NCBI GenBank assembly: GCA_036350935.1
Contig: JAZBOA010000095.1
Coordinates: 1 to 49,393, forward strand
Source of the DNA: Anderseniella sp.
GTDB lineage: Bacteria; Pseudomonadota; Alphaproteobacteria; Rhizobiales; Aestuariivirgaceae
Length of the DNA: 49,393 bases
Direction of reading: 5' to 3'
In this document: positions 3,705 through 48,270 of the stretch, in pieces
How the letters are laid out: every line of letters begins with the position of its first letter
Position numbering within the stretch: the stretch's first letter is position 1
Program-made: the position numbers and the translations under genes
Notes under the pieces: generated by a model
The model's input: the letters and a program-made list of their open reading frames with translations, nothing else
Told to the model about the DNA's origin: nothing
Database searches by the model: none

Positions 3705-3732
3705 CACCGTCTGCCATAAGCAACTGAAACAG

Positions 3733-3758
3733 CCGGAGGTGCGCCATAGCACCTCCGG
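3733..3758 (+). terminator. Stem-loop after dctP (mRNA stabiliser or attenuator)
   Basis: CCGGAGGTGC-gccata-GCACCTCCGG; no U-tract. Confidence 0.55.
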
Positions 3759-3799
3759 TGCCGCTCACCAGACCTCATCCTGCACAACCGGGGCACACC

Positions 3800-8523: not shown

Positions 8524-8603
8524 GCCCCCGGCGAATGCATTGACGAATGCACAGCATGTCCTAGGCTGGGTTCATCTCGACTGATTGGCCCGGGAGCATG
8601 CAC

Positions 8604-11079: not shown

Positions 11080-11217
11080 CGCTCCCCGTCTGGCCTTCAC
11101 GCCTTGATGACTGGTTGAATCGGGCTCCATCGTATAGGTCTTGGGTACCCCATACCATGCCGCAGCCGCATGGATGCCATGACCGGTTGAAGGAAAACAG
11201 ATGCAGACGGAACGCCC

Positions 11218-11991: not shown

Positions 11992-12008
11992 AGCGGTTTA
12001 AACCGCTT
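11991..12008. promoter_or_regulatory. Perfect 18-bp palindrome AAGCGGTTTAAACCGCTT
   Basis: Seen directly at the LOG stop codon, upstream of the sigma-54 activator; role unknown. Confidence 0.4.
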
Positions 12009-12127
12009 GTTCACCATATTCAGGCATCCTCACTGGCAAGATTTCGTCAGTGAGTGCGGGCCGCGCCATCCTCCACGGAGCAATCATGGCGCGCCACCCG
12101 CCGGTTTAGTAATCAGGTTCGTTCCGC

Positions 12128-13513: not shown

Positions 13514-13523
13514 CCCGGCCGCT

Positions 13524-13952
13524 TCAGCCTGCGAAGATCAGGTCGTCGTCATCGCTGACGATGTCGCCGAAATGCACCGCCACCAGCGCAACATCCGAGT
13601 CCCGACCGGCTTTCAGCCCGTGCACGACGCCGGCGGGAATGTACAGGCTGTCATCGGGGCTGGCGATCAGCACATCGTCACCCAGCATCACCTCGGCCTC
13701 GCCTGAAACCACCGTCCAGTGCTCGGAGCGGTGTCTGTGATAATGGGCCGGCATCGACTCGCCGGCCTTCACCTCGATCCGTTCAACCCGGTGCCCGCCT
13801 CCGCCGGACAGCACCGAGACCGATCCCCAGCCATGCTGCAGGCAAGGTTTCTCCGCCCCGTTGCGCGGCACCGGATGATAGTCGGCAAGTCTTGCTGAAT
13901 GTGACCTGGGCGCAAGGCGCGCAAGCGGAACCACCGGCACGATGCCAGCCAT
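13524..13952 (-). CDS. Stand-alone cupin resembling the C-terminal phosphomannose-isomerase domain of ManC
   Basis: HGWG...RIEVKAG...HYHRHRSEHWTVVSG...YIPAGVVH; GAGGGAG RBS before ATG 13952. Confidence 0.75.
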   Translation of the reverse strand: MAGIVPVVPLARLAPRSHSARLADYHPVPRNGAEKPCLQHGWGSVSVLSGGGGHRVERIEVKAGESMPAHYHRHRSEHWTVVSGEAEVMLGDDVLIASPDDSLYIPAGVVHGLKAGRDSDVALVAVHFGDIVSDDDDLIFAG

Positions 13953-14062
13953 GACGCAGTCTCCCTCGTGTTCCGGGTGTCCTGCTGCCGTGGCCGAACC
14001 CATTTGCCGGGTTTCTTGCACTCCACGGGGCTGGCGCCACCCGCCTGTTGCTTGTCGAGGCA

Positions 14063-14078
14063 AGCAAGCGGTGGGCCA
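14063..14078 (-). promoter_or_regulatory. Sigma-54 -24/-12 promoter
   Basis: Minus strand reads TGGCCCACCGCTTGCT, i.e. GG-N10-GC within TGGC...TTGCT. Confidence 0.75.
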
Positions 14079-14153
14079 ATGCAGCCGCCGGGCCGAAAGC
14101 GTGGAGAATCCGTCATTGCATCCATCATCGGACATGCCAGACCGAAGCTGGAT

Positions 14154-14190
14154 CTTTGCAGAATGCAAAGCCTGCATCGCAGAATGCAAA
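14154..14190. promoter_or_regulatory. Tandem enhancer (UAS) boxes of the TTGCA-N3-TGCAA type
   Basis: CTTTGCAGAATGCAAAG (14154-14170) and TCGCAGAATGCAAA (14177-14190), 21 bp apart, about 110-130 bp upstream of the predicted sigma-54 start. Confidence 0.72.
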
Positions 14191-14261
14191 CGTGGCGGAA
14201 AATGCCGGGCTGGCTTCCTGCCGGCCGAATGACAGGAAACTGCGGGGTCCGGCGGAAAGTG

Positions 14262-14420
14262 CTACTTCAGGTCTTCGCTGTCTTCCATCACCTTGAGGAG
14301 GTGCATGACCTCCTTCAGTTCCGGCGAGATGTCCTGATGACGGCGGGTGCGATCCGGAGAGACAGGCTGTTGGCCGTTGCCGTCGGAAACTTCATCCGCT
14401 ATGCGGTTTACGCTGTACAT
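14262..14420 (-). CDS. Small hypothetical protein (52 aa)
   Basis: Below the ORF-track cutoff. MYSVNRIADEVSDGNGQQPVSPDRTRRHQDISPELKEVMHLLKVMEDSEDLK; GC3-rich codons in its 3' half, purine-rich RBS, fills an intergenic gap. Confidence 0.55.
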   Translation of the reverse strand: MYSVNRIADEVSDGNGQQPVSPDRTRRHQDISPELKEVMHLLKVMEDSEDLK

Positions 14421-14574
14421 TGTCCCAGCCCTTCAACTCTGGTCGGAGATGCAGTCTATGACTGTACCTCCTAATGAATCTCTAACCATGCCGGGTAAAG
14501 ATTGCCGCCCGGTCACTGGCTGAACCGTCTAGGCTTGCTTCCGGGCGGAATTTGGACAGGGAGACGACAAAAGT

Positions 14575-33620: not shown

Positions 33621-34802
33621 TCACCCCTTGACGTTCAGACGCCGCGGAGTGTTGCACAAGGTTTCGACGCCGGTCTCGGTAATGAGGATCGGCTCGGTGA
33701 TCTCCAGCCCGCCGTCATCCAGCCACAGGGCCGGCATGAAGTGGAAGATCATGCCGGGCTTCAGCACGTTCTTGTCGCCACGGCGGAACGACATGGTGCG
33801 CTCGCCCCAGTCCGGCGGATAGCTGAGCCCGATGGAATAGCCGGTGCGCGAGTCCTTCGAAAACCCGTGCCTCTCCAGCGTGTCGTAGAAAGCGATGGCG
33901 ATATCCTCGCAGGTATTGCCGGGCTTCGCCTTCTCTAGGCCGGCGTCCACGGCTTCGAGCACCGCCTTCTCGGCGTCGAGATACTTCTGTGGCACCTTTC
34001 CGAGGAACAGCGTGCGCGACTGCGGGCAGTTGTAGCGCCGGTAGCAGCCGGCAATCTCGAAGAAGGTGCTCTCGCCTTGCCTGAACGGCCGGTCGTCCCA
34101 GGTCAGGTGAGGTGCGGTGGCGTCCATACCGGACGGCAGCATCGGCACGATGGCCGGATAGTCGCCCCAGTGCCCGTCCGCGCCTTCCACCGAGACCTTG
34201 TAGAGCTCGGCCACCAGCCGGTTTTTGGGCAGGCCCACCTCTGCCATGTCGACGATGGTGGCGTGCATGCGCTCGACGATCTTTGCCGCACGGCGCATGA
34301 ACTCGATCTCGTTGGCCGACTTGATGGCGCGCTGCCAGTTGACCAGGCCAACCGCGTCGCTGAACTTCGCCTGAGGCAGATGTTTTTTCAGGCTCTCCCA
34401 CGCCGCCGCCGTGAACCAGTAATTGTCCATCTCGACGCCGATGCGGGCCTTCTCCCAGCCGCGCTCCTTGATGATGCCGGACAGGTGGTCCATCGGGTGG
34501 CGCTCGGTGGACTGCACATAGTGGTCGGGGTAACCGATGATGTTGTCATGCGCCATGAAGGCGGTGCGATAGGCGCCATTGGCGTCCATGCCGCGCCCCC
34601 ACCAGACCGGCTCTCCCTCGAGGCCCACCAGCACCGCCTGGTGCACATAGAATGACCAGCCGTCATAGCCGGTCAGCCACCCCATGTTGGACGGGTCGGA
34701 CACGATGATCAGGTCAAGCCCCCGTTCGGCCATGGCGGCCCGGGTCTTGGCGATGCGCGCGGTGTACTCATCGCGCGAAAAATGCAATACGGCGTCAGTC
34801 AT
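33621..34802 (-). CDS. doeA: Ectoine hydrolase (M24 family)
   Basis: WLTGYDGWSFYVHQ, YVQSTERHPMD, GVEMDNYWF, YPPDWGERT. Confidence 0.88.
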   Translation of the reverse strand: MTDAVLHFSRDEYTARIAKTRAAMAERGLDLIIVSDPSNMGWLTGYDGWSFYVHQAVLVGLEGEPVWWGRGMDANGAYRTAFMAHDNIIGYPDHYVQSTERHPMDHLSGIIKERGWEKARIGVEMDNYWFTAAAWESLKKHLPQAKFSDAVGLVNWQRAIKSANEIEFMRRAAKIVERMHATIVDMAEVGLPKNRLVAELYKVSVEGADGHWGDYPAIVPMLPSGMDATAPHLTWDDRPFRQGESTFFEIAGCYRRYNCPQSRTLFLGKVPQKYLDAEKAVLEAVDAGLEKAKPGNTCEDIAIAFYDTLERHGFSKDSRTGYSIGLSYPPDWGERTMSFRRGDKNVLKPGMIFHFMPALWLDDGGLEITEPILITETGVETLCNTPRRLNVKG

Positions 34803-34893
34803 TGGTGGGCAGCCCCTCGACGGCAGGTGACAGATGGTCCAAGAATGACGCCCGAACGCCCCTCCTTTCAATCCTGCCAGCGACATAATTTTC

Positions 34894-36030
34894 ATGGGTA
34901 CAGTTTTCGACATCATCGTCATCGGCGGCGGCATTGCCGGCATGTCGGCCGCTGCCGAACTCAGCCGCGATCACAAGGTCTGCGTGCTGGAGCGCGAAGC
35001 GGCCGCCGGCTACCACTCCACCGGACGCTCTGCCGCCACCTTCGTGCCCAGCTACGGCCCACCCGCCTTCCAGGCGCTGGCGCGGGCCAGCGAGGCGTTC
35101 TTTACCGGCGCCGATCCGCAATTCTGGCCTGAGCCGCTGCTTAGCCCCCGTGGCGAGGTGATGATGATCGCGCCCGGTGAGGAAGCCCACATTGCCGAAG
35201 GCCAGGCGCTGGGCCTGATCGACCTGCCGCTTGACGAGTTGAAGCGCCGCGTGCCGCTGTTGAGGCAGGAGACGCTGGTGGCCGCGCTGATCGACGAGGC
35301 TGCCCGCGACATCGACGTGGACCTGCTGCTGCAGGGTTACGTGAAGCTGCTGCGCGCACGCGGCGGCGAGGTCCGCTTCAAGGCGGAAGTGACCGGCTTC
35401 ACCCGGCACTATGGCGCCTGGCAGGTGCAGACTGCAGGGGGTGACAGCTTCAGCGCCGGGATGGTGGTCAATGCCGCCGGCGCCTGGGCGTCAGAAATCG
35501 GACGGCAGGCCGGAGCGCAGGACATTGCCATCACGCCGAAGCGCCGCTCCGCCATGCTGCTCGACTTGCCGCCGGATTGCGGACTGGACGGCTGGCCCCT
35601 GTGCTTCGGCGCTGGAGAAACCTTCTATTTCAAGCCCATGGGCGGCCGGCTGATGCTGTCGCCCGCCGACGCAACGCCGGTCGACCCGCATGATGCGTGG
35701 GCCGACGACATGGCGCTTGCCGAGGCGGTGGAGAAGTTCCAGCAGGTGATCGACTTCGAAGTCACCCACGCCGGCCAGAGCTGGGGCGGCCTGCGCTCGT
35801 TCGCGCCTGACGGCAACCCGGTCGTTGGCTTTGACGAGGTCCAGGACCACTTCATCTGGCTCGCCGGACAGGGGGGATACGGCATCCAGTCGGCGCCCGC
35901 GCTGGGACGCATGATCTCCAGCTTGGTCAACTCCGATCACACCATACGGGAAAGCACCTACGCCGGGCTTGAACTGGCAGCCATTTCCCCTGCAAGGTTT
36001 GCAGGCGGCGGAAAGACACAAGGTGACTAG
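34894..36030 (+). CDS. FAD-dependent D-amino-acid oxidoreductase (D-arginine dehydrogenase DauA-like)
   Basis: GGGIAG, GYHSTGRSAA, NAAGAW, WGGLRSF, GQGGYGIQSAPA. Confidence 0.85.
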   Translation: MGTVFDIIVIGGGIAGMSAAAELSRDHKVCVLEREAAAGYHSTGRSAATFVPSYGPPAFQALARASEAFFTGADPQFWPEPLLSPRGEVMMIAPGEEAHIAEGQALGLIDLPLDELKRRVPLLRQETLVAALIDEAARDIDVDLLLQGYVKLLRARGGEVRFKAEVTGFTRHYGAWQVQTAGGDSFSAGMVVNAAGAWASEIGRQAGAQDIAITPKRRSAMLLDLPPDCGLDGWPLCFGAGETFYFKPMGGRLMLSPADATPVDPHDAWADDMALAEAVEKFQQVIDFEVTHAGQSWGGLRSFAPDGNPVVGFDEVQDHFIWLAGQGGYGIQSAPALGRMISSLVNSDHTIRESTYAGLELAAISPARFAGGGKTQGD

Positions 36031-37629
36031 ATGAACGATGGCGGCGTGAGTGTTGGCGAGGCCCTGGTGGGGCTGCTGGAGGCGTATGGTGTCGACACGG
36101 TGTTCGGCATTCCGGGCGTACACAACGTTGAAATGTACAGGGCACTGCCGCGCTCGAGGATAACCCACATCCTGCCCCGCCATGAACAGGGCGCAGGCTT
36201 CATGGCCGATGGCTATGCCCGGGCAACCGGCAAACCGGGGGTATGCTTCACCATCACCGGGCCTGGCCTGACCAACATTCTCACCCCGATGGGCCAGGCC
36301 TGGTCGGATTCGGTGCCGATGCTGGTGATTTCCTCGACGCTCGACGTGAAGGACACCGGCCAGGGCCGTGGCCGCCTGCACGAGATGATCTCGCAGCTCG
36401 ATGCGGCGCGCTCCTGTGCGGCGCTTGCCGCTACCTGTTATACGGCCCGCGACGTGCAGGACCGGATTGCCGAGGCTTTCGCGCTGTTCGCCTCTGCCCG
36501 GCCCCGGCCTGCCTATATCGAGATTCCGCTCGATGTGCTGAAGTACCCGGCCGGTGAGGGCTGGTCGGCTCGGGCCCTGCCCGGGCGGCCCAAGGCAAGC
36601 GCCGATTCCGTTGACGAAGCAGCCTGCCGGCTCGCACATGCCCGCAAGCCGGTGATCATCCTGGGCGGTGGCGCCCGCCATGCCGGCGCGGCTGCAGCCG
36701 AGATTGCCGAGCATACCGGTGCCGTCATCTTCACCACGATCGCGGCCAAGGGCGCGGTGCCGGAAGCTCATCCGCTGCTGGCGGGCGCCCTGTTGCCAAA
36801 CCCGAAAGCCATGCAGTTCATCAACGAGGCGGACGTAGTGCTGGTGGCTGGCAGCGAGCTGTCCGAAACCGACCTCTGGGACCAGCAGTTTGACCTCAAG
36901 GGCAACCTGATTCGCGTCGATATCGACCCCGCGTCGCTGGCGCGCCCCTTCCCGGCGGACCTGCCGATCCTCGCCGATGCCGACTGCGCACTGCCGGCAA
37001 TCGCCTCGCGCTTTCACGACAAGTGTGACAGGACCGGTCGCATTGCCGAAGTTGCCGCCCTTCGCAGCGCCTGCGCCGAAAACGCAGACGGCATGCGCCG
37101 CACCATCGCAACCGTGCTGGAGACAGTCCGCGCCGCCTTGCCGGAAGATACCATCATCGCCTCCGACATGACCCAGATCGCCTATGCTGCCAACGAGGTG
37201 CTGCCGATGACCCGGCCGGCCTGCTATCTGCACCCCGTCGGATTCGGCACGCTGGGCTATGCCCTGCCGGCCGCAATCGGCGCGCGCGCCGGCGTGCTGG
37301 GCCAACCAGTTGTCGCGATGGCCGGTGACTATGGCTTCCAGTACACCTGCAACGAACTGGGTACGGCGGCAGAAATGGGCCAGCCGCTGGTGGTGCTGCT
37401 GTGGAACAACGATGCGCTGGGACAGATCCGCGACGACATGGTGTACAAGGGTATCCAGCCCAACGCCGTGACGCTGAAGAACCCGGACTTTGCCGCATTG
37501 GCGCGGTCCTATGGCTGCGAAGCCATGCAGCCGCAGTCGCTTGATGAGCTTGCCTCGGCGATTGCCTCCGCGCTGAAGGCGAAGGGTCCGGTGCTGATCG
37601 AGGTCCGGCCCTCCATCGTGAAGGGCTGA
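36031..37629 (+). CDS. aruI: ThDP-dependent 5-guanidino-2-oxopentanoate (2-ketoarginine) decarboxylase
   Basis: FGIPGVH, RHEQGAGFMADGYAR, ITGPG, ASDMTQ, GFGTLGY, GDYG...WNN. Confidence 0.8.
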   Translation: MNDGGVSVGEALVGLLEAYGVDTVFGIPGVHNVEMYRALPRSRITHILPRHEQGAGFMADGYARATGKPGVCFTITGPGLTNILTPMGQAWSDSVPMLVISSTLDVKDTGQGRGRLHEMISQLDAARSCAALAATCYTARDVQDRIAEAFALFASARPRPAYIEIPLDVLKYPAGEGWSARALPGRPKASADSVDEAACRLAHARKPVIILGGGARHAGAAAAEIAEHTGAVIFTTIAAKGAVPEAHPLLAGALLPNPKAMQFINEADVVLVAGSELSETDLWDQQFDLKGNLIRVDIDPASLARPFPADLPILADADCALPAIASRFHDKCDRTGRIAEVAALRSACAENADGMRRTIATVLETVRAALPEDTIIASDMTQIAYAANEVLPMTRPACYLHPVGFGTLGYALPAAIGARAGVLGQPVVAMAGDYGFQYTCNELGTAAEMGQPLVVLLWNNDALGQIRDDMVYKGIQPNAVTLKNPDFAALARSYGCEAMQPQSLDELASAIASALKAKGPVLIEVRPSIVKG

Positions 37630-37636
37630 AAAACCC

Positions 37637-38332
37637 ATGACCGCGCACCGGCATGCGGTGGTGTTCGATGTCGACGGCCCGCTGCTGGACCTGACTTCGC
37701 CGGAGGAGGATGCCTTCTTCGAGTCATTCCGGCTGTTGCACGGCATAGACGGACTGTCGCGCGACTGGGACAGCTACCGGGTGCGCAATGACCGCGAGAT
37801 CATCCACGAGATCCTTGAGAACCACCTGGGCGCTTCCTTCGGTGCGCACCACTACGATGAGGTGCTGTCGGCCTATGACCGCATCCTCACCGGCGGCTTT
37901 GCCTCGGGCCAGCTCAAGGTGACCCCGATCCCCGGCGCCGCGGAACTGCTGCACGCATTGAGCGGCATCAATGGACTGGCGCTCGGCACCGCCACCGCAA
38001 ACATTCGCCGGGCAGCTGAGATCCGGCTGCGCGCGGCAGGCTTCTGGGACCATGTCAGCCGCTATCCCGGCGCGGCGGACGAGGGCGGCCACAAGCACCA
38101 GGTGCTGGCGCGGGTGATCGCGGACATGGACCTGCCGCCGCAGCGCGTGGTCTATATCGGCGACAACCTGAATGACCTCGAAGCCGGCCAGGTCAATGGC
38201 ACACACTTCATCGGCTTTCACGTTGGCCCGGCCAAACGCCAGCGGCTGTTGGACCATGGCGCCCGCCACGTAACCGGTGATCATCGCGAGACGCTTGCCT
38301 TGATCCGGGATATGCTCAACATCGCACCATGA
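37637..38332 (+). CDS. HAD-superfamily hydrolase
   Basis: FDVDG, TAN, K, YIGDNLND motifs. Confidence 0.85.
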   Translation: MTAHRHAVVFDVDGPLLDLTSPEEDAFFESFRLLHGIDGLSRDWDSYRVRNDREIIHEILENHLGASFGAHHYDEVLSAYDRILTGGFASGQLKVTPIPGAAELLHALSGINGLALGTATANIRRAAEIRLRAAGFWDHVSRYPGAADEGGHKHQVLARVIADMDLPPQRVVYIGDNLNDLEAGQVNGTHFIGFHVGPAKRQRLLDHGARHVTGDHRETLALIRDMLNIAP

Positions 38333-39609
38333 GTGATCCTGCAATCGAGCTGAACGAGGACTGCAAGTCCATGCTGGCGGGCGGCAAGGGGCCGGCCACA
38401 CGATTCGCCATGCAACTTGTACTGCGCGCAGCCCAGGTCACCGGTGCGGCGCGGCTGGTGCCGGTCACCTTCGCCCATATCGACGCCTGCTTCTATGCAG
38501 GTCAGGCCCATGTTGATTTTGCCCGCTTCATGCTGGACGGCGGCGCCACCTTTGCGGTACCGGCCTGGACCAACAACGGGCTGGTGAGCCTCGTCAACAC
38601 CGAGGCGCGCGACCCGGAGACCGAGATGGCGCGCGGCGCGCGCGAACTGATGCAGCTTTACGCAGCGCTCGGCTGCAAGACGGTGTGGACCTGTGCGCCC
38701 TACCAGCTGCCCGGACGGCCCAAGGCGGGTGACCACATCGTCGTCGGCGAATCCAATGCGGTCAGCTTCTACAATGCCGTGGTGGGCGCGCGCACCAACA
38801 AGTACGGCGACTATCTCGACGTCGCTTGCGCCGTTACCGGCTACGCCCCCTTCTATGGCCTGCACACCGATGAAGGACGCAAGGCAACCATCCTGTTCGA
38901 CACCAGCGCCATTCCGGAAGACCTCAAGCGGCAGGACATCTACTTCCACCTGCTCGGCACGGTGATCGGCCAGCGCGCGGGCCATGCAGTCCCGGCCATC
39001 GATCAACTCGGCCCAGGCACCGGGGAAGATGCGCTGAAAGCCATCTCCGCCGCAGCAGCAGCCGCCGGTGGCGTTGAGCACTGGCATGGCATTGGCCGCA
39101 CACCGGAGGCGCCGGACCTGCAAACCGCCTTCGGAGGGCATAGTCCTCAGCGAGTCGAAACAATAACATTGAACGATCTTGCCGGCGCCCGCCGGCAACT
39201 TACCTCGTCCAGTGATGGGCCAGTGACCATGGTCGCCCTCGGCACCCCGCATTTCTCGTTCACCGAGTTTGCTGCGCTCACCCCGATGATTGCCGGCCGC
39301 AAGGTAAAAAGCGGCGTAAAACTGAGTATTTCCACCAGCCGCCACGTGCGCGATCTTGCCATTGAAAAGGGCTGGATTCCCCAGCTTGAAGCCGCTGGCG
39401 CCGAGATCATGGTGGACACCTGCAGCTACTTCTCACCCGCCATCCGAGGTTGCAAGGGCCGGGTCATGACCAACGCCGCCAAGTGGGCGTGGTACGCACC
39501 GGGACAGTTGAGCGTTGAAGTCTGTTTCGGCTCGCTACTGGAATGCGCCGAAACAGCTGTACGTGGCGAAGTCTGGCGTGATCCGCAACTGTGGCAGGGG
39601 CTCGACTGA
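38329..39609 (+). CDS. Aconitase X catalytic subunit (DUF521)
   Basis: AHID, WTCAPY, ESNAV...GARTN, LGTPHFS, DTC, TNAAKW. Confidence 0.88.
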   Translation: MSDPAIELNEDCKSMLAGGKGPATRFAMQLVLRAAQVTGAARLVPVTFAHIDACFYAGQAHVDFARFMLDGGATFAVPAWTNNGLVSLVNTEARDPETEMARGARELMQLYAALGCKTVWTCAPYQLPGRPKAGDHIVVGESNAVSFYNAVVGARTNKYGDYLDVACAVTGYAPFYGLHTDEGRKATILFDTSAIPEDLKRQDIYFHLLGTVIGQRAGHAVPAIDQLGPGTGEDALKAISAAAAAAGGVEHWHGIGRTPEAPDLQTAFGGHSPQRVETITLNDLAGARRQLTSSSDGPVTMVALGTPHFSFTEFAALTPMIAGRKVKSGVKLSISTSRHVRDLAIEKGWIPQLEAAGAEIMVDTCSYFSPAIRGCKGRVMTNAAKWAWYAPGQLSVEVCFGSLLECAETAVRGEVWRDPQLWQGLD

Positions 39610-40022
39610 TGGAGATACACGCCCGCATATTGTTCGACGGCTCTGCCGAGGCAGATGTCATGCGGTTGGGCGCACCGTTGAGTTTCTGGGGTGGTTTCGA
39701 TCCGCTATCAGGAATCATCCTCGACAACAACCACCCGCAGAAAGGGCAAAGCCTGAAAGGCAGGATACTGGTCATGCCGGCCACTCGCGGCTCAGGCGGC
39801 ACGCCCGGCGGCGTGGCTGAGGCCATCCGCAACGGCTCAGGTCCGGTGGCGGTGATCATGGGCGAGGGCGATGTCAACGTCATGGTGGGCGCCGCCGTGG
39901 CACAACAGCTCTACGGCCTCACCTGCCCGATCCTTGAAGTATCCGGCGCGGACTACGATGCCGTTGCAGCAGCCCGGCACCTGCGCATCCGCGAAGGCGG
40001 CATCATCGACATCGAGTTCTAA
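39609..40022 (+). CDS. Aconitase X swivel subunit (DUF126)
   Basis: LSFWGGFDP.SG.I...HP.G.SL.GRIL, RGS; TGATG coupling. Confidence 0.88.
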   Translation: MEIHARILFDGSAEADVMRLGAPLSFWGGFDPLSGIILDNNHPQKGQSLKGRILVMPATRGSGGTPGGVAEAIRNGSGPVAVIMGEGDVNVMVGAAVAQQLYGLTCPILEVSGADYDAVAAARHLRIREGGIIDIEF

Positions 40023-41566
40023 GCCTGCCAGTCTTTCAGTTCTTCCTTGCGCCGCGCCATGAACGCCTTGAGGGCTTCATCCACGGCCTCGTCCATAGCA
40101 GGTTCTTGATAGGCTTCAAGCATCTGTTTCCACACGCGATTTGCGCGCTCCGTGGCGGTTCTGGCGCCATCCTCATGCCAGCTTTCATAGTTTCGCCAGT
40201 CCGAAATCATCGGCGCGTAGAACGCGGTTTCGAAGCGCTCCAGAGTATGACCCGTGCCGAAGAAATGCCCGCCGGGTTCCACGCTCTTGATGGCGTCCAC
40301 CGCCAGGGCCTCGTCGCTCACATCGAAAGGCTTCAGGCTTGCCGCCCACTGCCGGATCATCTCCGCATCGACCACGGTCTTCTCCAGCGAAGCCGACAAC
40401 CCGCCTTCCAGCCAGCCAAGGCCGTGATGCACAACGTTGACGTGGCCCATCACGCAGGCCCACAGCGACATGGCGGTCTCATAGGTCGATTGCGCGTCGA
40501 CGCAATTGGAGGCGTTCACGTTCGACGACCGGTAGGGCAGCCTGAAATGACGCGCCAGCTGGCCGCCGATCAGCACCGCCTGCACATATTCCGGCGTACC
40601 GAAGGCTGGTGCGCCGCTCTTCATGTCGACATTGGAGGTAAACCCGCCGAACAGCACCGGCGCGCCCGGGTTGGCCATCTGCGCCAGCGCGATCACGCCA
40701 AGCGCCTCAGCCGTCTGCTGCACCAGCGCACCAGCCACCGTAACCGGGCTCATGGCGCCGGCCAGCGTGAACGGGGTTATGGCGACCGCCTGGCCGTACT
40801 CGCCGAAGCAAAGGAGGCCATCGAGCAGTTCCTCGTCTACCCGGCGTGGGCTGTTGACGTTGAACGAGGTCACCAGCGAGCACTGGGACCTGATCTGGTC
40901 CAGGCTGACGCCCCGGGCGATCGCCGCCATCTCGATGGCGTCCATGGCGCGGAACCGTGACACCGACCGCACGAACGCGGCCCGGTCCGTGTAGCGCAGG
41001 ATCGCATAGGCATTGTCGAGATGCCGCGTCGGCACCGGCAGGTCCATCGGTTCGACGATGGAACCGCCCATCATGTGCGCCACGCCCAGCGAGTGGTTGA
41101 GCTTCACCAGGTTGACGAGGTCCTGATAGCTGCCGGAGCGGCGGCCCTTGTCGATGTCGTTGATGTTGGGTGGCGAGCCCACCGTGTTGAAGTTGACAGT
41201 GTTGCCGCCGATGACAGTGTCTCGCCCGGGGTTGCGGGCGTGCAGGTCATATCGCTCCGGCGCCAGCGCCACGAAATGCTCAACCGTGGCCCGGTCCATC
41301 CGCACCAGCTTCGTCGCCCGGTCCACCTTGCAGCCATTGGCGGCATAGATGTCGAGACAGCGATCCGAGAGGATTTCCAGCCCCGCCTCTTCGAGTACCC
41401 GGTACGCCGCATGAACGATGCGCATCAGCTGGTCCTGGCCGATCAGTTCCAGCGGCGGCAGCGGATTGACCAGCGGCGGCAGCACTTGCGGCAAGCCTGT
41501 CCCGCCACGGCCATCGCGGGCATGTCCGCCCCTGCCCCGGCGCCTGGCGCCCTCACGGCCTGTCAT
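40019..41566 (-). CDS. Non-pyrrolysine MttB-family (trimethylamine/betaine) methyltransferase
   Basis: NVNSPR, TPFTLAGAMSPVT, SNVDMKSGAPAFGTPE, GWLEGG; no in-frame amber codon. Confidence 0.9.
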   Translation of the reverse strand: MTGREGARRRGRGGHARDGRGGTGLPQVLPPLVNPLPPLELIGQDQLMRIVHAAYRVLEEAGLEILSDRCLDIYAANGCKVDRATKLVRMDRATVEHFVALAPERYDLHARNPGRDTVIGGNTVNFNTVGSPPNINDIDKGRRSGSYQDLVNLVKLNHSLGVAHMMGGSIVEPMDLPVPTRHLDNAYAILRYTDRAAFVRSVSRFRAMDAIEMAAIARGVSLDQIRSQCSLVTSFNVNSPRRVDEELLDGLLCFGEYGQAVAITPFTLAGAMSPVTVAGALVQQTAEALGVIALAQMANPGAPVLFGGFTSNVDMKSGAPAFGTPEYVQAVLIGGQLARHFRLPYRSSNVNASNCVDAQSTYETAMSLWACVMGHVNVVHHGLGWLEGGLSASLEKTVVDAEMIRQWAASLKPFDVSDEALAVDAIKSVEPGGHFFGTGHTLERFETAFYAPMISDWRNYESWHEDGARTATERANRVWKQMLEAYQEPAMDEAVDEALKAFMARRKEELKDWQA

Positions 41567-41747: not shown

Positions 41748-42659
41748 ATGATCAGCCCGACCAGACTGACCCACCTGCGCCAGCTTGAAGCCGAGAGCAT
41801 CCACATCATGCGCGAGGTCGCCGCCCAGTGCGAGCGCCCGGTCATGCTGTACTCGATCGGCAAGGACTCGGCCGTCATGCTGCACCTCGCGATGAAGGCG
41901 TTCTATCCGGCCAAGCCGCCGTTTCCGCTGCTCCACGTGGACACCACCTGGAAGTTCCGCGCCATGATCGAGTTCCGCGACCAGCTGGCGAAGGAGCTCG
42001 GTTTCGATCTGCTGGTGCACACCAACCAGGAAGGCCTCAAGGCCGGCGTCAACCCGTTCTCGGTGGGGTCGGCCCGCCACACCGACATCATGAAGACCGA
42101 GGCGCTGAAACAGGCGCTCGACATGTACGGCTTCGACGCAGCCTTCGGGGGCGCACGCCGCGACGAGGAAAAATCACGCGCCAAGGAGCGCATCTTCTCG
42201 TTCCGCAACGCCCAGCACCGCTGGGACCCGAAGAACCAGCGCCCGGAACTGTGGCGCACCTACAACACCCGCATCAACAAGGGTGAGTCAATGCGGGTGT
42301 TCCCGCTGTCCAACTGGACCGAGCTCGACATCTGGCAGTACATCCGCGACGAGAACATCCCCATCGTGCCCCTGTACTTCGCCGCCGAGCGCCCCGTGGT
42401 GCGCCGTGGCAACGACCTGATCATGGTCGATGATGACCGGATGCCGCTTCAGCCCGGCGAGAAGCCGGAAATGAAGATGGTGCGCTTCCGCACGTTGGGC
42501 TGTTACCCGCTGACCGGCGCCACCGAGAGTTCAGCCGACACGCTGGAAGCCATCATCGCCGAGATGCTGGTCACCACCACCTCCGAGCGCGCCGGCCGGG
42601 TCATCGACCACGACCAGTCCGCCTCCATGGAGAAGAAGAAGCAGGAGGGCTATTTCTGA
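41748..42659 (+). CDS. cysD: Sulfate adenylyltransferase subunit 2
   Basis: [46 protein letters not shown]. Confidence 0.97.
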
Positions 42660-44560
42660 TGCGCCCGCTCGACCTGACTGCCGACAACATTGCCGACTAC
42701 CTTGCCGAACAGTCGGCCAAGGACATGCTGCGCTTCATCACCTGCGGCTCGGTGGACGACGGCAAGTCCACGCTGATCGGCCGGCTGCTGTTTGAATCGA
42801 AGCTGATCTTCGATGACCAGTTGGCCGCGCTCGAAGCCGATTCGAAGCGCATGGGCACGCAAGGCCAGAACATCGACTTCGCGCTGCTGGTGGACGGCCT
42901 GGCGGCCGAGCGCGAACAGGGGATCACCATCGACGTGGCCTATCGCGCCTTCACCACGCCGAAGCGCAAGTTCATCGTCGCCGACACGCCGGGCCACGAG
43001 CAGTACACCCGCAACATGGCCACCGGCGCCTCCACGGCGGATCTTGCCGTTCTGCTGGTGGATGCCTCAAAGGGCATCCTCACCCAGACGCGGCGCCATG
43101 CCTACATCACCACCCTGCTCGGCATTCGCCACCTGGTGCTGGCGATCAACAAGATGGATCTCGTCAACTTCGGCCAGGCCACCTTTGAAAAGATCGAGCA
43201 GGACTTCCACGTCTTCGCCGAGGAGATTGGCGCAGGCGAGGTGACCTGCATCCCGATGTCGGCGCTGGGTGGCTGCAACGTCACCGGGCGCGGCGCCGAG
43301 ACGCCCTGGTACTCTGGCCCCACGCTGCTTGAACATCTCGAAACCATCGACATAACGTCAGCCGAAACGGACAAGCCCGCCCGCATGCCGGTGCAGTGGG
43401 TGTGCCGCCCCGACCAGACCTTCCGGGGCTTTGCCGGCGTCATGACCGCTGGCACCCTGCAGCCCGGAGACCCGGTGAAGATCCTGCCCTCGGCGCGCGA
43501 AAGCCGGGTCAAGCGCATCGTCACCATGGACGGCGACCTCGACGCGGCAGTGGCCGGCCAGTCGGTCATGCTGACGCTCGAACACGAGATCGACGCCAGC
43601 CGCGGCAGCGTCATCTGCGCCGCCGATGCACCGGTGCAGGTGGCCGACCAGTTCGAGGTGCAGGTATTGTGGATGGGCGACGAGGAAATGCTGCCCGGCC
43701 GGCCCTACCTGATCAAGCTGGGCACCCGCACTGTGCCCGGCAAGCTGGCCACGCCGAAATACGAGGTCAACGTCAACACGCTGGAGCACACCGCCGCGCG
43801 CACCCTTGCGCTCAATGAAATCGGCGTCTGCAACCTGTCGCTTGACGAGCAGGTGCCGTTCACGCCGTACGAGGAAGACCGCGACCTCGGCGGCTTCATC
43901 ATCATCGACCGCTACACCAACAATACCGTGGGCCTTGGCCTCATCCACTTTGCGCTGCGCCGCGCCAGCAATATTCACTGGCAGGCGCTGGACGTGAACA
44001 AGCAGACCCGCGCCGCCACCAAGAACCAGAAGCCGACGGTGCTGTGGTTCACCGGCCTGTCCGGTTCGGGCAAGTCCACGGTCGCCAACATCGTCGAGAA
44101 GCGGCTGACCGCCATGGGCCACCACACCTATCTGCTCGACGGCGACAATGTCCGCCATGGCCTCAACCGCGACCTCGGCTTCACCGACGCCGACCGGGTG
44201 GAGAACATCCGCCGCGTCTCGGAGGTTGCCAGGCTGATGGCCGATGCAGGCCTCATCGTGCTGGTCTCGTTCATCTCGCCGTTCCGCTCCGAACGCCGCA
44301 TGGCGCGCGAAATGCTGGAGGCTGGCGAGTTTGTGGAGATTCACGTCGACACGCCGCTGGAAGTGTGCGAGGCCCGCGACGTGAAGGGCCTCTATGCCAA
44401 GGCGCGCGCCGGCCAGATCAAGAACTTTACCGGCATCGACAGCGACTACGAGGCGCCCGAAAATGCCGAGATCCGCATCGACACCAGCCAGAAGACGCCC
44501 GACGTCACCGCTGGTGAGATCATCGAATACCTCGAAAATGCAGGAAGGTTGAAACCCTGA
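42659..44560 (+). CDS. cysNC: Bifunctional sulfate adenylyltransferase subunit 1 / APS kinase (NodQ-like)
   Basis: [14 protein letters not shown] and NKMD GTPase motifs plus C-terminal [12 protein letters not shown] and LDGDNVR. Confidence 0.96.
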
Positions 44561-45576
44561 TGAGCCACACCCACGATCCCGTCATGCTGACCTGGCTGAA
44601 CGGCCCGGATGTCGATGCGCTCGACATGACCAATGACGAGATCCTGGCGGCGGTAGAGCAAGGCCTCAAGGCGCAAGGCACCCCCGGCGGCGCGGTCATC
44701 GAGCCCCGCATGCACCTGACGCCGGACCCCGCATTCAATGGCCACTTCAACGTGCTGCGCGGTTACGTGGCGCCGATGGGCCTGGCAGGCGTGAAGATCG
44801 TCGGTGACTATGTCGACAACTACAAGCGCGGCCTGCCGTCGGAAATGGCGCTGCTCAACCTGTTCGATCCGCAAACCGGCATGCCGAAGGCCATCCTTGA
44901 TGCGACCTTGATCACCGATGCCCGCACCGGCGCCCTGACGGCGCTGGGCGCGCGTCATCTGGCGCGCAAGAACTCGAAAGTTCTCGGCCATGTCGGCGCC
45001 CGCGGCACCGCCTACTGGAACGTCCGGCTGCTCGATCACCTGTTCGACTTTGACGAGATCAGGGTGCACTCGCGCCGCCCCGAAAGCCGCGACGCATTTG
45101 CAGCAAAGCTGGAAGCTGACCTCGGCAAGAAGATCACCGTGACGGACAACTGGCGCGACTGCCTGGAAGGCGCGGACATCATGGTCGAGGCCTCGCGTCT
45201 CAACGAACGGCAGGAACTCTTCAGCTCTGACTGGGTAACGCCCGGCACCTGCGTGATTCCCTACGGCACCGTGTCGGCGCTCGACATGCGCATGACCGGG
45301 ATCATGGACAAGATCGTCATCGACGATTTCAGCCAGTTCCGCGCCGGCAAGCTGGGCGCACTGCGGCCTCACATCGATGCAGGCCTCGTCAGCGAGGAAA
45401 CAGTTCACGCCGAGCTCTGCCAGATCATTACGGGTGCGAAACAGGGCCGCGAGCGTGATGACGAGACCATCCTGTTCTGGCATCGCGGCTTGTCGCTGTC
45501 CGACATCGCACTGGGCGCTGCCATGCTGGAGAAAGCCGCCCGGCTTGGCATCGGCCAGCAGCTTCGTTACCGGTAA
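44560..45576 (+). CDS. Ornithine cyclodeaminase/mu-crystallin-family protein
   Basis: GVKIV, ITDARTGA, GARGTA, GRERDDE, GLSLSDIA. Confidence 0.85.
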   Translation: MSHTHDPVMLTWLNGPDVDALDMTNDEILAAVEQGLKAQGTPGGAVIEPRMHLTPDPAFNGHFNVLRGYVAPMGLAGVKIVGDYVDNYKRGLPSEMALLNLFDPQTGMPKAILDATLITDARTGALTALGARHLARKNSKVLGHVGARGTAYWNVRLLDHLFDFDEIRVHSRRPESRDAFAAKLEADLGKKITVTDNWRDCLEGADIMVEASRLNERQELFSSDWVTPGTCVIPYGTVSALDMRMTGIMDKIVIDDFSQFRAGKLGALRPHIDAGLVSEETVHAELCQIITGAKQGRERDDETILFWHRGLSLSDIALGAAMLEKAARLGIGQQLRYR

Positions 45577-47462
45577 ACCCCGGCCAGCCCGCCCATCAGC
45601 ACCAGCTCGCAGGCAATCGCCTCGATCTCGCGGCCAATGGGGCGGTCTTCGTCCATGAACGCCGAATACTGCCGCACCATCGCATGCGCCTGCGCCATCC
45701 GGTGGGCGATCGCATCCGGCTTTGCCAGGTCAACCGCCTGCGCGGCGGCAACCAGCTCGTAAGCCACGAGATAGCTCATCGTCTCGCACAACTGGTCCAG
45801 CTTGCGCGCCGCAAGCGGGCTGAGCGTGGCGGCATCCTCAACCCCGTTGGCGTTGAAACTGGCTACAACCGGCACCGGACTGGACAGGTGAATCACCTCG
45901 GCCCGCAGCGCCTCCAGCGGCTTCAGCAGGGGACCGAAGCCGGCCCGGCTGGTCGTGGCTGACGACAACAGCGGCGGCAACCCGGACACCTCCGGCGAGC
46001 ACAGCCGCTGGATGCGCGAAACAAGATCATTGGCCGCCTGAGCCAGCGCACGCGATGCGGTATCAAGTGACTGGGCCAGCCACGACGTGTGATAATTGCC
46101 GGCAGAGATCACCCGGCCTTCCCCGATCACCACCAGCGGGTTGTCGGGACAGCTGTTGAGCTCGACCGTCACCGCCTGCTCGAGCATTTGCAGGGCCGCC
46201 AGCGCCGAACCATGGATCTGCGCCACCGAACGGATCGAGACCGGGTCCTGCAACCGCCGCGCCGCTCCCGGTTCATGCAGGCCGCTGCCTTCAAGCAGCT
46301 TCATCAGCAACGCCGCTGTTTCCGCCTGGCCCGGTTGTGGCCGCGCCCTGTTGGCAGCGGGCGCCAGCGGTGACAGGTTGGCCCTGAACCCTTCCATGCT
46401 CAGCGCGGCCGCCAGGTTAGCCCCAGCCAGCACGCGCCGCGCCTTGGCCAGCGCCAGCGCAGCGGACCCAACCGAGTGCGCCGGGTTGTTGCACAGGGCA
46501 AGCCCATCCTTGGGCCCCAGTTGCAGCGGCTTCAGCCCCGCCTTCTTCAGCGCTTGCACAGCAGGCAAGCGTTTGCCGTCCACAAATGCTTCGCCCTCGC
46601 CGATCAGTGCATGGGCCATGCCGGCCATCACCACCAGGTCGCCCGCCCCGATGGAGCCGGTGCGCGGCATCACCGGCGTGAAGCCGGCATTGAGCGCATC
46701 GGCCAGCGCCTGCGCCACGTGGGGGCTGGCGCCAGCTTCACCCGTCAGCAGCGTATTGAGCCTCACCAGCATGGCGGCGCGAACCTCCGGCACGGTGAGC
46801 GGCTCGCCCACCGCCTGCGCCCGGCCACGCACCGTCTGGTACGAGAAGGCGGCTGCCTCATCGCGCGACAGCAGTTCGGTAGCGCGCATGCCCAATCCCG
46901 TGGTCAGGCCGTAGGCCGGCAGGCCTTCGTCGAAATACCGATCGACGGCGGCGCGTCCCCGCTGCATTGCGTCTGCTGCCTCCGGTGCAACCTCGACCTT
47001 GCGGCTCCGTGCCACCGCCTCCACATCAGCCACCGTCAGCGCCCGGCCCGTCAGCACCAGAGCCCCGGCCTCCGGCTTGCCGGCTTTGGCGCCCGCGAGC
47101 AGCCGTTCAAGATTGACAACCGCGCGCTGGTGACGGCCGGCCATGATCACCTTGCCGCCCTGCCGGGCTTCCACTTCGAAGGTCAGGCGGATGCCGTCAA
47201 TCTCGACAAGCTGCGAGGAAACGTCGACCGGCTGGTCCGGCGATGCCGCCCCCAGATGCTTCAGGTCGAAGCCGGTGCCGACACTTGCTTCGCCCTCTTC
47301 GAACAGGTGTTCGACAGCGTAAAGGGCAGCGAATTCCAGATAGCCGATGGTGGCGGGCGACGACACCACGTCGACTCCGGCATTGCCAATGGCCGAGGCA
47401 AGATCGGCCGGCTTGGGCCACACCTTGCCTTCATACCGCAGTCCAGGTTGGGCCGGTTTCAT
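45567..47462 (-). CDS. Fusion of an FlK-like hot-dog thioesterase and a histidine/aromatic amino-acid lyase-family domain lacking the ASG (MIO) motif
   Basis: N-terminal VVSSPATIGYLE...SVG...HLGA...GRHQRAVV; then YGLTTGLG, GSIGAGDL, KDGLALCN, QDPVSIR, DNP, GNYH, NGVED. Confidence 0.82.
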   Translation of the reverse strand: MKPAQPGLRYEGKVWPKPADLASAIGNAGVDVVSSPATIGYLEFAALYAVEHLFEEGEASVGTGFDLKHLGAASPDQPVDVSSQLVEIDGIRLTFEVEARQGGKVIMAGRHQRAVVNLERLLAGAKAGKPEAGALVLTGRALTVADVEAVARSRKVEVAPEAADAMQRGRAAVDRYFDEGLPAYGLTTGLGMRATELLSRDEAAAFSYQTVRGRAQAVGEPLTVPEVRAAMLVRLNTLLTGEAGASPHVAQALADALNAGFTPVMPRTGSIGAGDLVVMAGMAHALIGEGEAFVDGKRLPAVQALKKAGLKPLQLGPKDGLALCNNPAHSVGSAALALAKARRVLAGANLAAALSMEGFRANLSPLAPAANRARPQPGQAETAALLMKLLEGSGLHEPGAARRLQDPVSIRSVAQIHGSALAALQMLEQAVTVELNSCPDNPLVVIGEGRVISAGNYHTSWLAQSLDTASRALAQAANDLVSRIQRLCSPEVSGLPPLLSSATTSRAGFGPLLKPLEALRAEVIHLSSPVPVVASFNANGVEDAATLSPLAARKLDQLCETMSYLVAYELVAAAQAVDLAKPDAIAHRMAQAHAMVRQYSAFMDEDRPIGREIEAIACELVLMGGLAGVYR

Positions 47463-47496: not shown

Positions 47497-48219
47497 TTAC
47501 GCAGGCCGGCCGGGCGGGGATGGTTTGCGAACACCACCCGACTCTAGGATGAAGCGGTTCGATCGCACAAGCTTGTCGCGCATGTTTCGGGCAAAACTGC
47601 TCTCCAGCGCGTTGGCGATCTCGCCATCCTTGCCAACCAGATCGCGCAGTTGTTGCGCCTCGATGGCCCAATACCGGCTGTCCCGGATCAGCTTGACCGT
47701 CCCGTTGGCAGGATCGCCATGCAGCGCCGTCATCTCGCCGATGAAGGCGCCGGGTTCACACACCGCCACCGGCTTGCCGCCGGATGACACCAGCGCCTGG
47801 CCATCGGCCAGATAGATCAGGTGACTGACCGGCGCTCCTTCCCGGGTGAGCTGGGTGCCCTTGTCGCCCGATATCCACATACCGTGGTTGAGCAGCTTGC
47901 GCCGCTGCGCCATGGAGAGGTTGGGCAGGTGTCCATCCATGAAGGCCCGCTCCTCGTCACTGAACCGCGCAGACCGGTTCTGGTGCCATGTAATGAGCAA
48001 TTGCACGATGTTGACCACAACCAGCAGCGTTTCCCAGAATGTGCCGACGGGGTCACGCAGCACGATGCTGGCATAGGTGATGCCGACAATGGCCGACAGG
48101 ATCACCAGGATGCGCAGCCAGACCATCCGGCGCATCATCATGGATATTACAAGCAGGATGTAACTGGTATGGCCGAACAACCCTTCCGCCGACAGGGCTG
48201 ATTCAAGAGTCAATTCCAT
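47497..48219 (-). CDS. Membrane protein with a cyclic-nucleotide-binding domain (Popeye-like architecture)
   Basis: Three N-terminal TM segments (GHTSY...LRIL...WETL..VN), then LTREG...LIYLADG...FIGEM; no HTH. Confidence 0.78.
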   Translation of the reverse strand: MELTLESALSAEGLFGHTSYILLVISMMMRRMVWLRILVILSAIVGITYASIVLRDPVGTFWETLLVVVNIVQLLITWHQNRSARFSDEERAFMDGHLPNLSMAQRRKLLNHGMWISGDKGTQLTREGAPVSHLIYLADGQALVSSGGKPVAVCEPGAFIGEMTALHGDPANGTVKLIRDSRYWAIEAQQLRDLVGKDGEIANALESSFARNMRDKLVRSNRFILESGGVRKPSPPGRPA

Positions 48220-48270
48220 AAGCGGCTGCCCGTCTTGATTGCACTGTTGCAATCAAACGATGAATGCGGA

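What the first reader, a model, noticed from the sequence alone, without database searches (positions are those of the whole stretch)
45567..47462. Thioesterase fused to an MIO-less ammonia-lyase homologue
Seen: one uninterrupted frame. The first ~125 aa resemble fluoroacetyl-CoA thioesterase FlK, with Ser/Glu/His at the Thr/Glu/His triad positions and the conserved Arg. The lyase domain has GSIGAGDL (around 46635-46660) instead of GSVGASGDL, so it lacks the Ser needed to form MIO, and QDPVSIR replaces QDxYSxR, yet the catalytic Tyr loop YGLTTG remains. Established: ergothionase-type trimethylammonia lyases are MIO-independent members of this family. Inference: a novel bifunctional enzyme that eliminates a good leaving group such as trimethylamine and handles a CoA ester.
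Basis: partly seen in the sequence, partly recalled or inferred. Interest (0 to 1): 0.78.

Follow-up and report, generated by a model that had tools for sequence, protein, structure and literature searches.

The report
Thioesterase fused to cofactor-free histidine-betaine lyase
This is a real two-domain gene shared across one bacterial genus: one half likely strips trimethylamine from an oxidised form of the antioxidant ergothioneine, the other likely cleaves a coenzyme-A ester during histidine breakdown, and the two were probably joined because they were neighbours in an operon, not because they work in one reaction.

Summary
Confirmed: one minus-strand frame (47462-45567, 631 aa), FlK thioesterase plus HAL-family lyase without the MIO motif. 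Not an assembly error: 36 full-length fused homologues; one frame in 20 of 23 other genomes of the (Anderseniella-like) genus; independent contigs span the junction; both domains show dN/dS near 0.11.

The lyase keeps ergothionase's Tyr and sulfur-binding Lys384, has Arg for the imidazole His, and lies beside a conserved OCD/mu-crystallin gene in 52 of 78 loci, often near urocanase. Best reading: ergothioneine-sulfonate trimethylamine-lyase, the OCD-like partner removing sulfite to give urocanate (a known pathway kind; paper recalled, not read).

In sister genera both genes lie unfused in the hut operon, three times with an ATGA overlap; there FlK also fuses to an isomerase or to HutG, and one lineage kept FlK while losing lyase and OCD. 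So the fusion is probably positional, not a coupled reaction. The thioesterase substrate is open (likely a urocanyl-type CoA ester). The scan found the lyase-OCD pair and the FlK-isomerase module before on other DNA. New variant of known kinds; interest 0.4.

The parts
45567..47462 (-). Fused gene, 631 aa: FlK-type hotdog thioesterase + MIO-less HAL-family lyase
   Evidence: 36 full-length homologues
47100..47462 (-). FlK-type thioesterase domain (residues 1-121); S35 (47360-47358), E43 (47336-47334), H69 (47258-47256), R113 (47126-47124)
   Evidence: Pfam PF22636; alignment to FlK 3kv7/3kuv; invariant in 36 of 36; dN/dS 0.107
47055..47099 (-). Linker (residues 122-136), variable, about the length of the FlK tail plus the lyase head of the unfused ATGA-overlap form
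   Evidence: dN/dS 0.37, 37% mean identity; pLDDT <50 at 123-130; unfused form
45588..47054 (-). MIO-less lyase domain (residues 137-625)
   Evidence: PF00221; best PDB hit 6s7j, E 2.9e-68; Foldseek rank 1 6s7j; below hutH cut-off, 351 vs 539 bits
46911..46913 (-). Y184, the predicted catalytic base (histidase/ergothionase loop Tyr)
46821..46823 (-). R214, replacing the imidazole-binding His of histidase and ergothionase; clade signature
   Evidence: 39 of 39 fused, 79 of 81 further hits (2 gaps); the genome's own HAL has His
46635..46658 (-). GSIGAGDL: MIO motif one residue short, no Ala-Ser-Gly
46230..46250 (-). QDPVSIR: carboxylate-binding Q405 and R411 kept, histidase Tyr replaced
45921..45923 (-). 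K514, aligned to ergothionase Lys384, the sulfur-binding residue
   Evidence: alignment (chain K383, counted by hand; +1 offset inferred); 39 of 39 and 81 of 81
44560..45576 (+). OCD/mu-crystallin-family gene (338 aa), convergent, 10-base overlap with the fused gene; conserved partner, predicted sulfourocanate desulfonase
   Evidence: PF02423; below the cut-off of every NCBIfam family hit; 52 of 78 loci
41748..44560 (+). cysD and cysNC, directly upstream of the OCD-like gene with a TGATG overlap (context, this genus only)
47497..48252 (-). Membrane protein with a cyclic-nucleotide-binding domain, upstream on the same strand in 20 fused loci (context)

Best explanation
The gene encodes one polypeptide with two domains that likely work independently: a cofactor-free lyase predicted to cut trimethylamine from ergothioneine sulfonate, and an FlK-type thioesterase predicted to hydrolyse a urocanyl-type CoA ester. 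Steps: (1) shown: no MIO motif; catalytic Tyr, carboxylate Gln/Arg/Asn and imidazole Glu are kept. (2) inferred from established ergothionase chemistry: Y184 removes the beta-proton and the quaternary amine leaves as trimethylamine, giving a urocanate derivative. (3) inferred: K514 and R214 (with R193 nearby) bind an anionic sulfur group at imidazole C2. (4) inferred: the neighbouring NAD(P)H-binding OCD-family enzyme removes sulfite reductively, and urocanate enters the genome's hut pathway. (5) shown: in sister genera FlK and lyase are adjacent separate genes of the hut operon, three times with an ATGA overlap; inferred: one loss of the stop in the ancestor of this genus fused them, and the gene moved out of the hut operon. 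(6) inferred, weakest: the thioesterase frees urocanate and CoA from urocanyl-type CoA esters, a role inherited from a hut-linked CoA ligase/isomerase module.
For: Residues. Bertsova 2025 and 2026 state that MIO-less members are trimethylammonia-lyases and that Lys384 is replaced by Asn or Gln in those acting on sulfur-free betaines; here Lys is kept in 120 of 120 protein hits. OCD ortholog in 52 of 78 loci at 52-96% identity, in several orientations, in Alphaproteobacteria, Actinomycetota and Betaproteobacteria. 9 of 9 class-sample genomes with a lyase hit at E<=5e-80 have it; the 4 weaker hits (about 1e-67) do not. Urocanase in 7 of 55 and a betaine-type binding protein in 14 of 55 unfused loci. 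The own genome has one urocanase homologue only, in a normal hut operon, so no thiourocanate hydratase was found. Family loci show hutU-C-I / hutF-hutH-SDR-[ligase]-[FlK]-[isomerase]-[hutG]-lyase facing OCD. ATGA overlaps: L121, L226, L229. FlK fused to an HCCA-isomerase-like domain or to HutG (one genome). Fused lyases form one clade, support 99. G013 keeps FlK alone at the syntenic place and gave no lyase or OCD hit, 98% complete; its FlK groups with fused ones (SH-aLRT 95).
Against: No assay; the substrate rests on two residues and gene neighbours. The A. radiobacter K84 enzymes could not be fetched, so orthology to the characterised sulfonate pathway is untested and that paper's content is recalled. 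16 of 25 class-sample genomes with the OCD ortholog gave no hit to this lyase clade (only 3 candidates scored per genome; 3 have more distant MIO-less lyases beside it), so the pairing is not exclusive. Three clade members lack K514 (L073, L077, L194), one of them in a genome that has the OCD. The own genome has no ortholog of the hut-linked CoA ligase (best 34%), isomerase (29%) or SDR (41%), and 17 of 18 genus genomes gave no ligase hit at E<=1e-90, the other 37%, so the source of the thioesterase's substrate in this genus is unexplained. In the family FlK occurs without the ligase and the ligase without FlK. The FlK tree is a quick tree on 127 columns with many open forks.
Confidence: 0.52

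Rival explanations
1. Same two independent domains, but the lyase substrate is another histidine betaine: ergothioneine itself, its sulfinate, S-methyl-ergothioneine or hercynine, with the OCD-like enzyme doing another step.
For: K514 is the residue that the Bertsova papers tie to ergothioneine thiolate binding; betaine-type transporters and MttB genes are common neighbours; hercynine would give urocanate directly, fitting the hut linkage.
Against: Hercynine lyases replace Lys384 by a neutral residue; ergothioneine would give thiourocanate, and no second urocanase homologue was found in the genome; the His-to-Arg change adds positive charge; two actinobacterial loci hold a second MIO-less lyase with His/Tyr at these sites beside hut genes (L049, L074), a better candidate for the sulfur-free substrate.
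Confidence: 0.25
2. Coupled bifunctional enzyme: the lyase product, or a CoA ester of it, is handed to the thioesterase in one pathway.
For: The fusion is kept in one frame in 20 of 23 genus genomes with equal purifying selection on both halves although the ancestral ligase and isomerase were not found; Rhizobium johnstonii has a CoA transferase, SDR and MaoC dehydratase just upstream of its lyase.
Against: 0 of 55 unfused genome loci have FlK within 8 kb; FlK is kept when lyase and OCD are lost; FlK fuses to other neighbours too; known trimethylamine-lyases act on the free carboxylate, and the carboxylate-binding residues are intact; R. tropici has the lyase without those CoA genes in the genes scanned.
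Confidence: 0.12
3. The FlK half is a general housekeeping short-chain acyl-CoA thioesterase, or a non-catalytic binding module, with no link to histidine chemistry left.
For: Its hut-linked partners were not found in the genus; more distant FlK relatives sit in unrelated contexts; hotdog thioesterases are often promiscuous (own knowledge).
Against: Its closest unfused relatives sit in hut operons in 7 of 17 family loci examined and right after hutH in 3 metagenome contigs; the genome has a second, distant FlK paralogue (34%) that could fill a general role; all catalytic residues are invariant.
Confidence: 0.09
4. Assembly error, recent stop-codon loss, or an ordinary MIO-forming histidase.
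For: Some sources name homologues 'histidine ammonia-lyase'; one genus member has a break inside the lyase half (L017).
Against: 36 full-length fused homologues down to 63% identity; contigs cross the junction without gaps; no Ser for MIO, hutH score below cut-off; the genome has a separate true hutH with the full motif.
Confidence: 0.02

Closest known systems
Ergothionase (ergothioneine trimethylammonia-lyase) of Treponema denticola, PDB 6s7j/6s7q
   Same: Best hit by sequence (E 2.9e-68) and fold (30% identity); same one-residue-short MIO region; catalytic Tyr, Lys384, Gln/Arg/Asn/Glu positions kept.
   Different: Imidazole His replaced by Arg; N-terminal thioesterase domain; partner is an OCD-family gene; no thiourocanate hydratase found.
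Ergothioneine sulfonate catabolic pathway of Agrobacterium radiobacter K84 (Yan, Huang, Zhang, ACS Catal 2022, 12:4825)
   Same: Recalled, not read: a trimethylamine-lyase plus an OCD/mu-crystallin-family reductive desulfonase giving urocanate. Seen only: the reference entry and a sentence naming A. radiobacter among trimethylamine-lyase hosts. The same lyase-OCD cassette with the R214/K514 signature is in Rhizobium tropici and R. johnstonii.
   Different: Here the lyase carries a thioesterase; it is about 40% identical to the Rhizobium lyases (OCD 67-69%); direct orthology to the K84 proteins is untested.
Histidine betaine lyase Swoo_3913 and N(pi)-methyl histidine betaine lyase SO_3299 (Bertsova et al., bioRxiv 2025.08.13.670108; 2026.04.22.720169)
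   Same: MIO-less HAL-family trimethylammonia-lyases.
   Different: They have Asn/Gln at Lys384, are periplasmic and sit with flavocytochrome reductases; this protein keeps Lys, starts with an FlK domain and sits with an OCD gene.
Fluoroacetyl-CoA thioesterase FlK of Streptomyces cattleya (PF22636; PDB 3kv7, 3kuv)
   Same: Hotdog domain, Ser/Glu/His triad and Arg in register.
   Different: Distant (E about 1e-12); belongs to a hut-linked clade that fuses to an HCCA-isomerase-like domain, HutG or this lyase; substrate unknown.
Histidine ammonia-lyase HutH (TIGR01225)
   Same: Fold, catalytic Tyr loop, carboxylate site; product likely joins the same pathway.
   Different: No Ala-Ser-Gly, no His83, no Tyr280; 351 bits against a cut-off of 539.

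Membership tests
Histidine ammonia-lyase (MIO-dependent) | Ala-Ser-Gly motif forming MIO | tested here: not met
   GSIGA-GD in 39 of 39 fused proteins at the aligned positions; own-genome HAL has the full motif
Histidine ammonia-lyase (MIO-dependent) | Score above TIGR01225 / PRK09367 cut-off | tested here: not met
   351 vs 539 and 356 vs 524 bits
MIO-independent trimethylammonia-lyases | HAL fold without MIO motif | tested here: met
MIO-independent trimethylammonia-lyases | Catalytic Tyr, carboxylate Gln/Arg/Asn, imidazole Glu | tested here: met
   Y184, Q405, R411, N456, E542 invariant in 36 of 36
MIO-independent trimethylammonia-lyases | Releases trimethylamine from a histidine betaine | not testable with these tools
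   needs an assay
Ergothionase in the strict sense (TdETL, SO_3057) | Lys384 | tested here: met
   K514 aligns to chain K383 (hand count; +1 offset to the paper's number inferred)
Ergothionase in the strict sense (TdETL, SO_3057) | His binding the imidazole N(tau) | tested here: not met
   Arg214
Ergothionase in the strict sense (TdETL, SO_3057) | Downstream thiourocanate hydratase or reductase | tested here: inconclusive
   only one urocanase homologue in the 96%-complete genome; reductase or desulfhydrase not searched
Histidine betaine (hercynine) lyase | Neutral residue at Lys384 | tested here: not met
   Lys in 120 of 120 protein hits; criterion
Ergothioneine sulfonate lyase of the A. radiobacter K84 pathway (features recalled) | Linked OCD/mu-crystallin-family gene and urocanate pathway | tested here: met
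Ergothioneine sulfonate lyase of the A. radiobacter K84 pathway (features recalled) | Orthology to the characterised K84 proteins | not testable with these tools
   record and paper not held; cassette seen in other Rhizobium species
FlK-type thioesterase (PF22636) | Pfam score above cut-off | tested here: met
   77.9 vs 27 bits
FlK-type thioesterase (PF22636) | Thr(Ser)/Glu/His triad and Arg | tested here: met
   S35, E43, H69, R113; residue roles recalled
FlK-type thioesterase (PF22636) | Fluoroacetyl-CoA selectivity or link to a fluorinase cluster | not tested
   fluorinase not searched; neighbours of relatives point to hut genes

The most novel reading that the evidence does not exclude
The protein is a two-door funnel into histidine breakdown: the lyase door takes oxidised ergothioneine, and the hotdog door is the thioesterase of an undescribed CoA-dependent salvage route (CoA ligase + glutathione-type cis-trans isomerase + thioesterase) that turns cis-urocanate or a related imidazole acid into trans-urocanate. 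It would be a HAL-family/hotdog bifunctional enzyme with both outputs urocanate, and its family would name the genes for bacterial cis-urocanate use.
Probability: 0.25. Interest if true: 0.65.

Novelty: new variant of a known kind. Interest (0 to 1): 0.4.

Why it matters
It shows a genus-wide enzyme fusion with its unfused ancestor (ATGA overlap), alternative fusions and a reversal all visible in living relatives. It gives a two-residue signature (Arg at the histidase His, Lys at ergothionase Lys384) for a wide lyase clade that databases call 'hutH', for example in Rhizobium, and suggests that sediment and soil alphaproteobacteria release trimethylamine and sulfite from oxidised ergothioneine. 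It also points to an uncharacterised CoA module inside hut operons. It is not evidence of new lyase chemistry.

Tried and rejected
Concerted lyase-thioesterase pathway: rejected as best reading. Hercynine lyase, my first reading: lowered once K514 was mapped. Link to cysDNC as proof of a sulfur role: seen in 19 fused loci and 0 unfused, so context only; the same for MttB, AcnX and the upstream sugar-acid genes. RNA run X19 covers only short pieces of the gene as contigs and says nothing on expression. The single-chain model (pLDDT 79, pTM 0.75) has low confidence in the active-site loops and was used only for the fold search; no complex was predicted. The ESM Atlas gave only generic OCD names for the partner. 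Ten literature searches: none returned a text describing the sulfonate pathway's genes or a CoA-dependent cis-urocanate route; none asked directly for an FlK-lyase fusion, so absence from print is not shown. Five papers were not held. The first neighbour clustering was spoiled by shadow frames and replaced, whose gene picker missed a few real genes (the lyase in L028, L046, L047). The careful FlK tree did not finish; the quick tree was used.
Full report
Observation. The stretch 45567-47462 is one minus-strand frame of 631 aa. Pfam gives FlK at 19-118 and Lyase_aromatic at 142-598, both above cut-off. S35/E43/H69/R113 align to FlK T42/E50/H76/R120 (hand count; their catalytic roles are recalled).

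Is the fusion real? Of 120 listed homologues, 36 are full-length two-domain proteins at 63-99% identity and 3 more are shorter with both domains. In the genus, 21 of 23 other genomes have the lyase and 20 have both domains in one open frame; one is cut by a contig break. Contigs of three DNA runs from three studies cross the junction with no gap; one may be the source sample. Over 41 of 153 pairs from 18 sequences (those with lyase dS<1; pairs not independent) dN/dS is 0.107 for FlK, 0.117 for the lyase and 0.37 for the linker. Named relatives are Anderseniella sp. or unnamed Alphaproteobacteria/Pseudomonadota. Among the best 150 clusters of a search with the FlK half, one is this 632-aa fusion, and the 18 fused lyase rows form one clade, support 99 in a FastTree of 99 rows chosen from the 206 plus two family proteins. 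One origin fits.

The lyase half. The best solved relative by sequence and by fold is T. denticola ergothionase; the hutH models score below cut-off, and the genome has a separate true histidase in a hut operon. Two preprints (Bertsova 2025, parts 1-3 of 4 read; Bertsova 2026, parts 1 and 3-5 of 5 read; their supplementary alignments were not seen and bear on the residue mapping) state that MIO-less members cut trimethylamine from histidine betaines, list the binding residues, and show that enzymes with Asn or Gln at ergothionase Lys384 use sulfur-free betaines. From the alignment printed, K514 falls on that Lys and R214 on the His that binds the imidazole. K514 is present in 39 of 39 fused and 81 of 81 further protein hits; R214 in 39 and 79 (2 gaps). 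Exceptions: L073, L077 and L194 lack the Lys. The pocket therefore looks built for a histidine betaine with an anionic sulfur group (inference).

Its partner. The convergent OCD/mu-crystallin gene at 44560-45576 passes no NCBIfam cut-off. Its ortholog lies within 8 kb of the lyase in 52 of 78 loci (19 of 23 fused-type, the 4 misses at contig ends; 33 of 55 unfused), upstream, downstream or facing, across three major groups. Unfused loci also hold a betaine-type binding protein (14 of 55), a PhnD-like protein (11), urocanase (7), other hut genes (4-6) and MttB (8). In 400 genomes of the class, all 9 with a strong lyase hit have the OCD ortholog; 16 of 25 OCD genomes gave no lyase hit, 3 of which have more distant MIO-less lyases beside it and 3 have urocanase nearby. 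The genome has a single urocanase homologue, so the sulfur would have to leave before that step. An earlier AI note on other DNA (e1-4296254) proposed oxidised ergothioneine for such a pair and moved me off hercynine. A reference list then gave Yan et al. 2022 on an ergothioneine sulfonate pathway in A. radiobacter (PMC13405746, passages seen; PMC9967237, reference entry only). The paper was not held. That it describes a lyase plus an OCD-family reductive desulfonase is my recollection. The same cassette with the same signature is in R. tropici and R. johnstonii.

The thioesterase half. No FlK gene lies within 8 kb of 55 unfused lyases from distant taxa. Within the family it is different. Of 17 family loci examined (chosen for their OCD or isomerase hits), most show the operon hutF-hutH-SDR-[CoA ligase]-[FlK]-[HCCA-isomerase-like]-[hutG]-lyase facing the OCD gene; 7 hold FlK and none has it fused to the lyase. 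In two of them and in one metagenome contig FlK ends on an ATGA that starts the lyase (two of the three are close kin). In four FlK is fused to the isomerase-like domain and in one to HutG. FlK-isomerase fusions beside an orthologous ligase recur in metagenomes, once between hutU and hutH. Against a simple story: FlK occurs without the ligase in 5 of these loci and the ligase plus isomerase without FlK in 4, and the window's genome has no ortholog of ligase, isomerase or SDR. One genome of the genus (98% complete) keeps a 140-aa FlK with intact triad at the syntenic place and gave no lyase or OCD hit; it and three similar stand-alone clusters group with fused proteins in a quick tree of 84 rows (SH-aLRT 95). 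So lyase and OCD travel together, and FlK can live without them.

Mechanism. Shown: architecture, residues, neighbours, selection, unfused ancestors. Inferred: Y184 abstracts the beta-proton, trimethylamine leaves without MIO, K514/R214 hold the sulfonate, the OCD-like enzyme removes sulfite with NAD(P)H, urocanase takes over; separately, paired FlK domains hydrolyse a urocanyl-type CoA ester. My odds: real fusion 0.98; trimethylamine-lyase on a histidine betaine 0.9; sulfonate as main substrate 0.6; halves independent 0.85; urocanyl-type thioesterase substrate 0.45.

Verdict. Both halves are of known kinds and the join is most likely positional. Automatic annotation already holds members under either half's name.

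Noticed in passing
L101 (G024:C8) 3504-14495; L221-L235: Family-wide extended hut operon with an SDR, a CoA ligase, FlK and an HCCA-isomerase-like domain between hutH and the MIO-less lyase, in changing subsets; substrate unknown (cis-urocanate, imidazole-lactate or imidazole-propionate are candidates).
   Followed up: partly
L227 11344-12522: FlK fused in frame to N-formylglutamate amidohydrolase HutG (392 aa), seen in one genome only.
   Followed up: partly
L102 7095-7517: Stand-alone 140-aa FlK at the syntenic site; lyase, OCD and the cyclic-nucleotide-binding gene are absent from the locus.
   Followed up: yes
L080 3829-15672 (Rhizobium johnstonii pRL12): Gene annotated hutH is an MIO-less lyase with the Arg/Lys signature; upstream lie a putative sulfate exporter, CoA transferase, SDR, MaoC dehydratase and hutC; downstream a betaine-binding protein, OCD and a PhnD-like protein.
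   Followed up: partly
L049 6439-8085 and L074 1-1631: Actinobacterial loci with a second MIO-less lyase (His at 214, Tyr at 514) facing the first, next to hut genes; possibly a lyase for a sulfur-free betaine.
   Followed up: no
L026, L027, L032, L064, L075, L076, L078, L212, L214, L218: A fatty-acid-desaturase-family gene, mostly with an XRE regulator, recurs beside the lyase or the OCD gene; a 43% homologue is on contig C170 of the own genome near a TauD-family gene. It might oxidise the sulfur; untested.
   Followed up: partly
L206 11445-14506; L207 5280-6842; L209 5765-7276: More distant MIO-less lyases (two in tandem in L206) beside the same OCD ortholog.
   Followed up: no
window 44558-44562: cysNC stop overlaps the OCD start (TGATG), so the OCD-like gene is likely co-expressed with sulfate activation genes in this genus.
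   Followed up: partly
L017 8001-9901: One genus member has a break inside the lyase half (562 aa + 145 aa frames).
   Followed up: no
window 33621-41566: Neighbourhood rich in amine and osmolyte catabolism: ectoine hydrolase DoeA, FAD oxidoreductase, 5-guanidino-2-oxopentanoate decarboxylase, split aconitase X, MttB-family methyltransferase; the genome has at least seven MttB-like genes.
   Followed up: no
G004 and G008: Each assembly holds two copies of the fused gene; these may be mixed bins.
   Followed up: no
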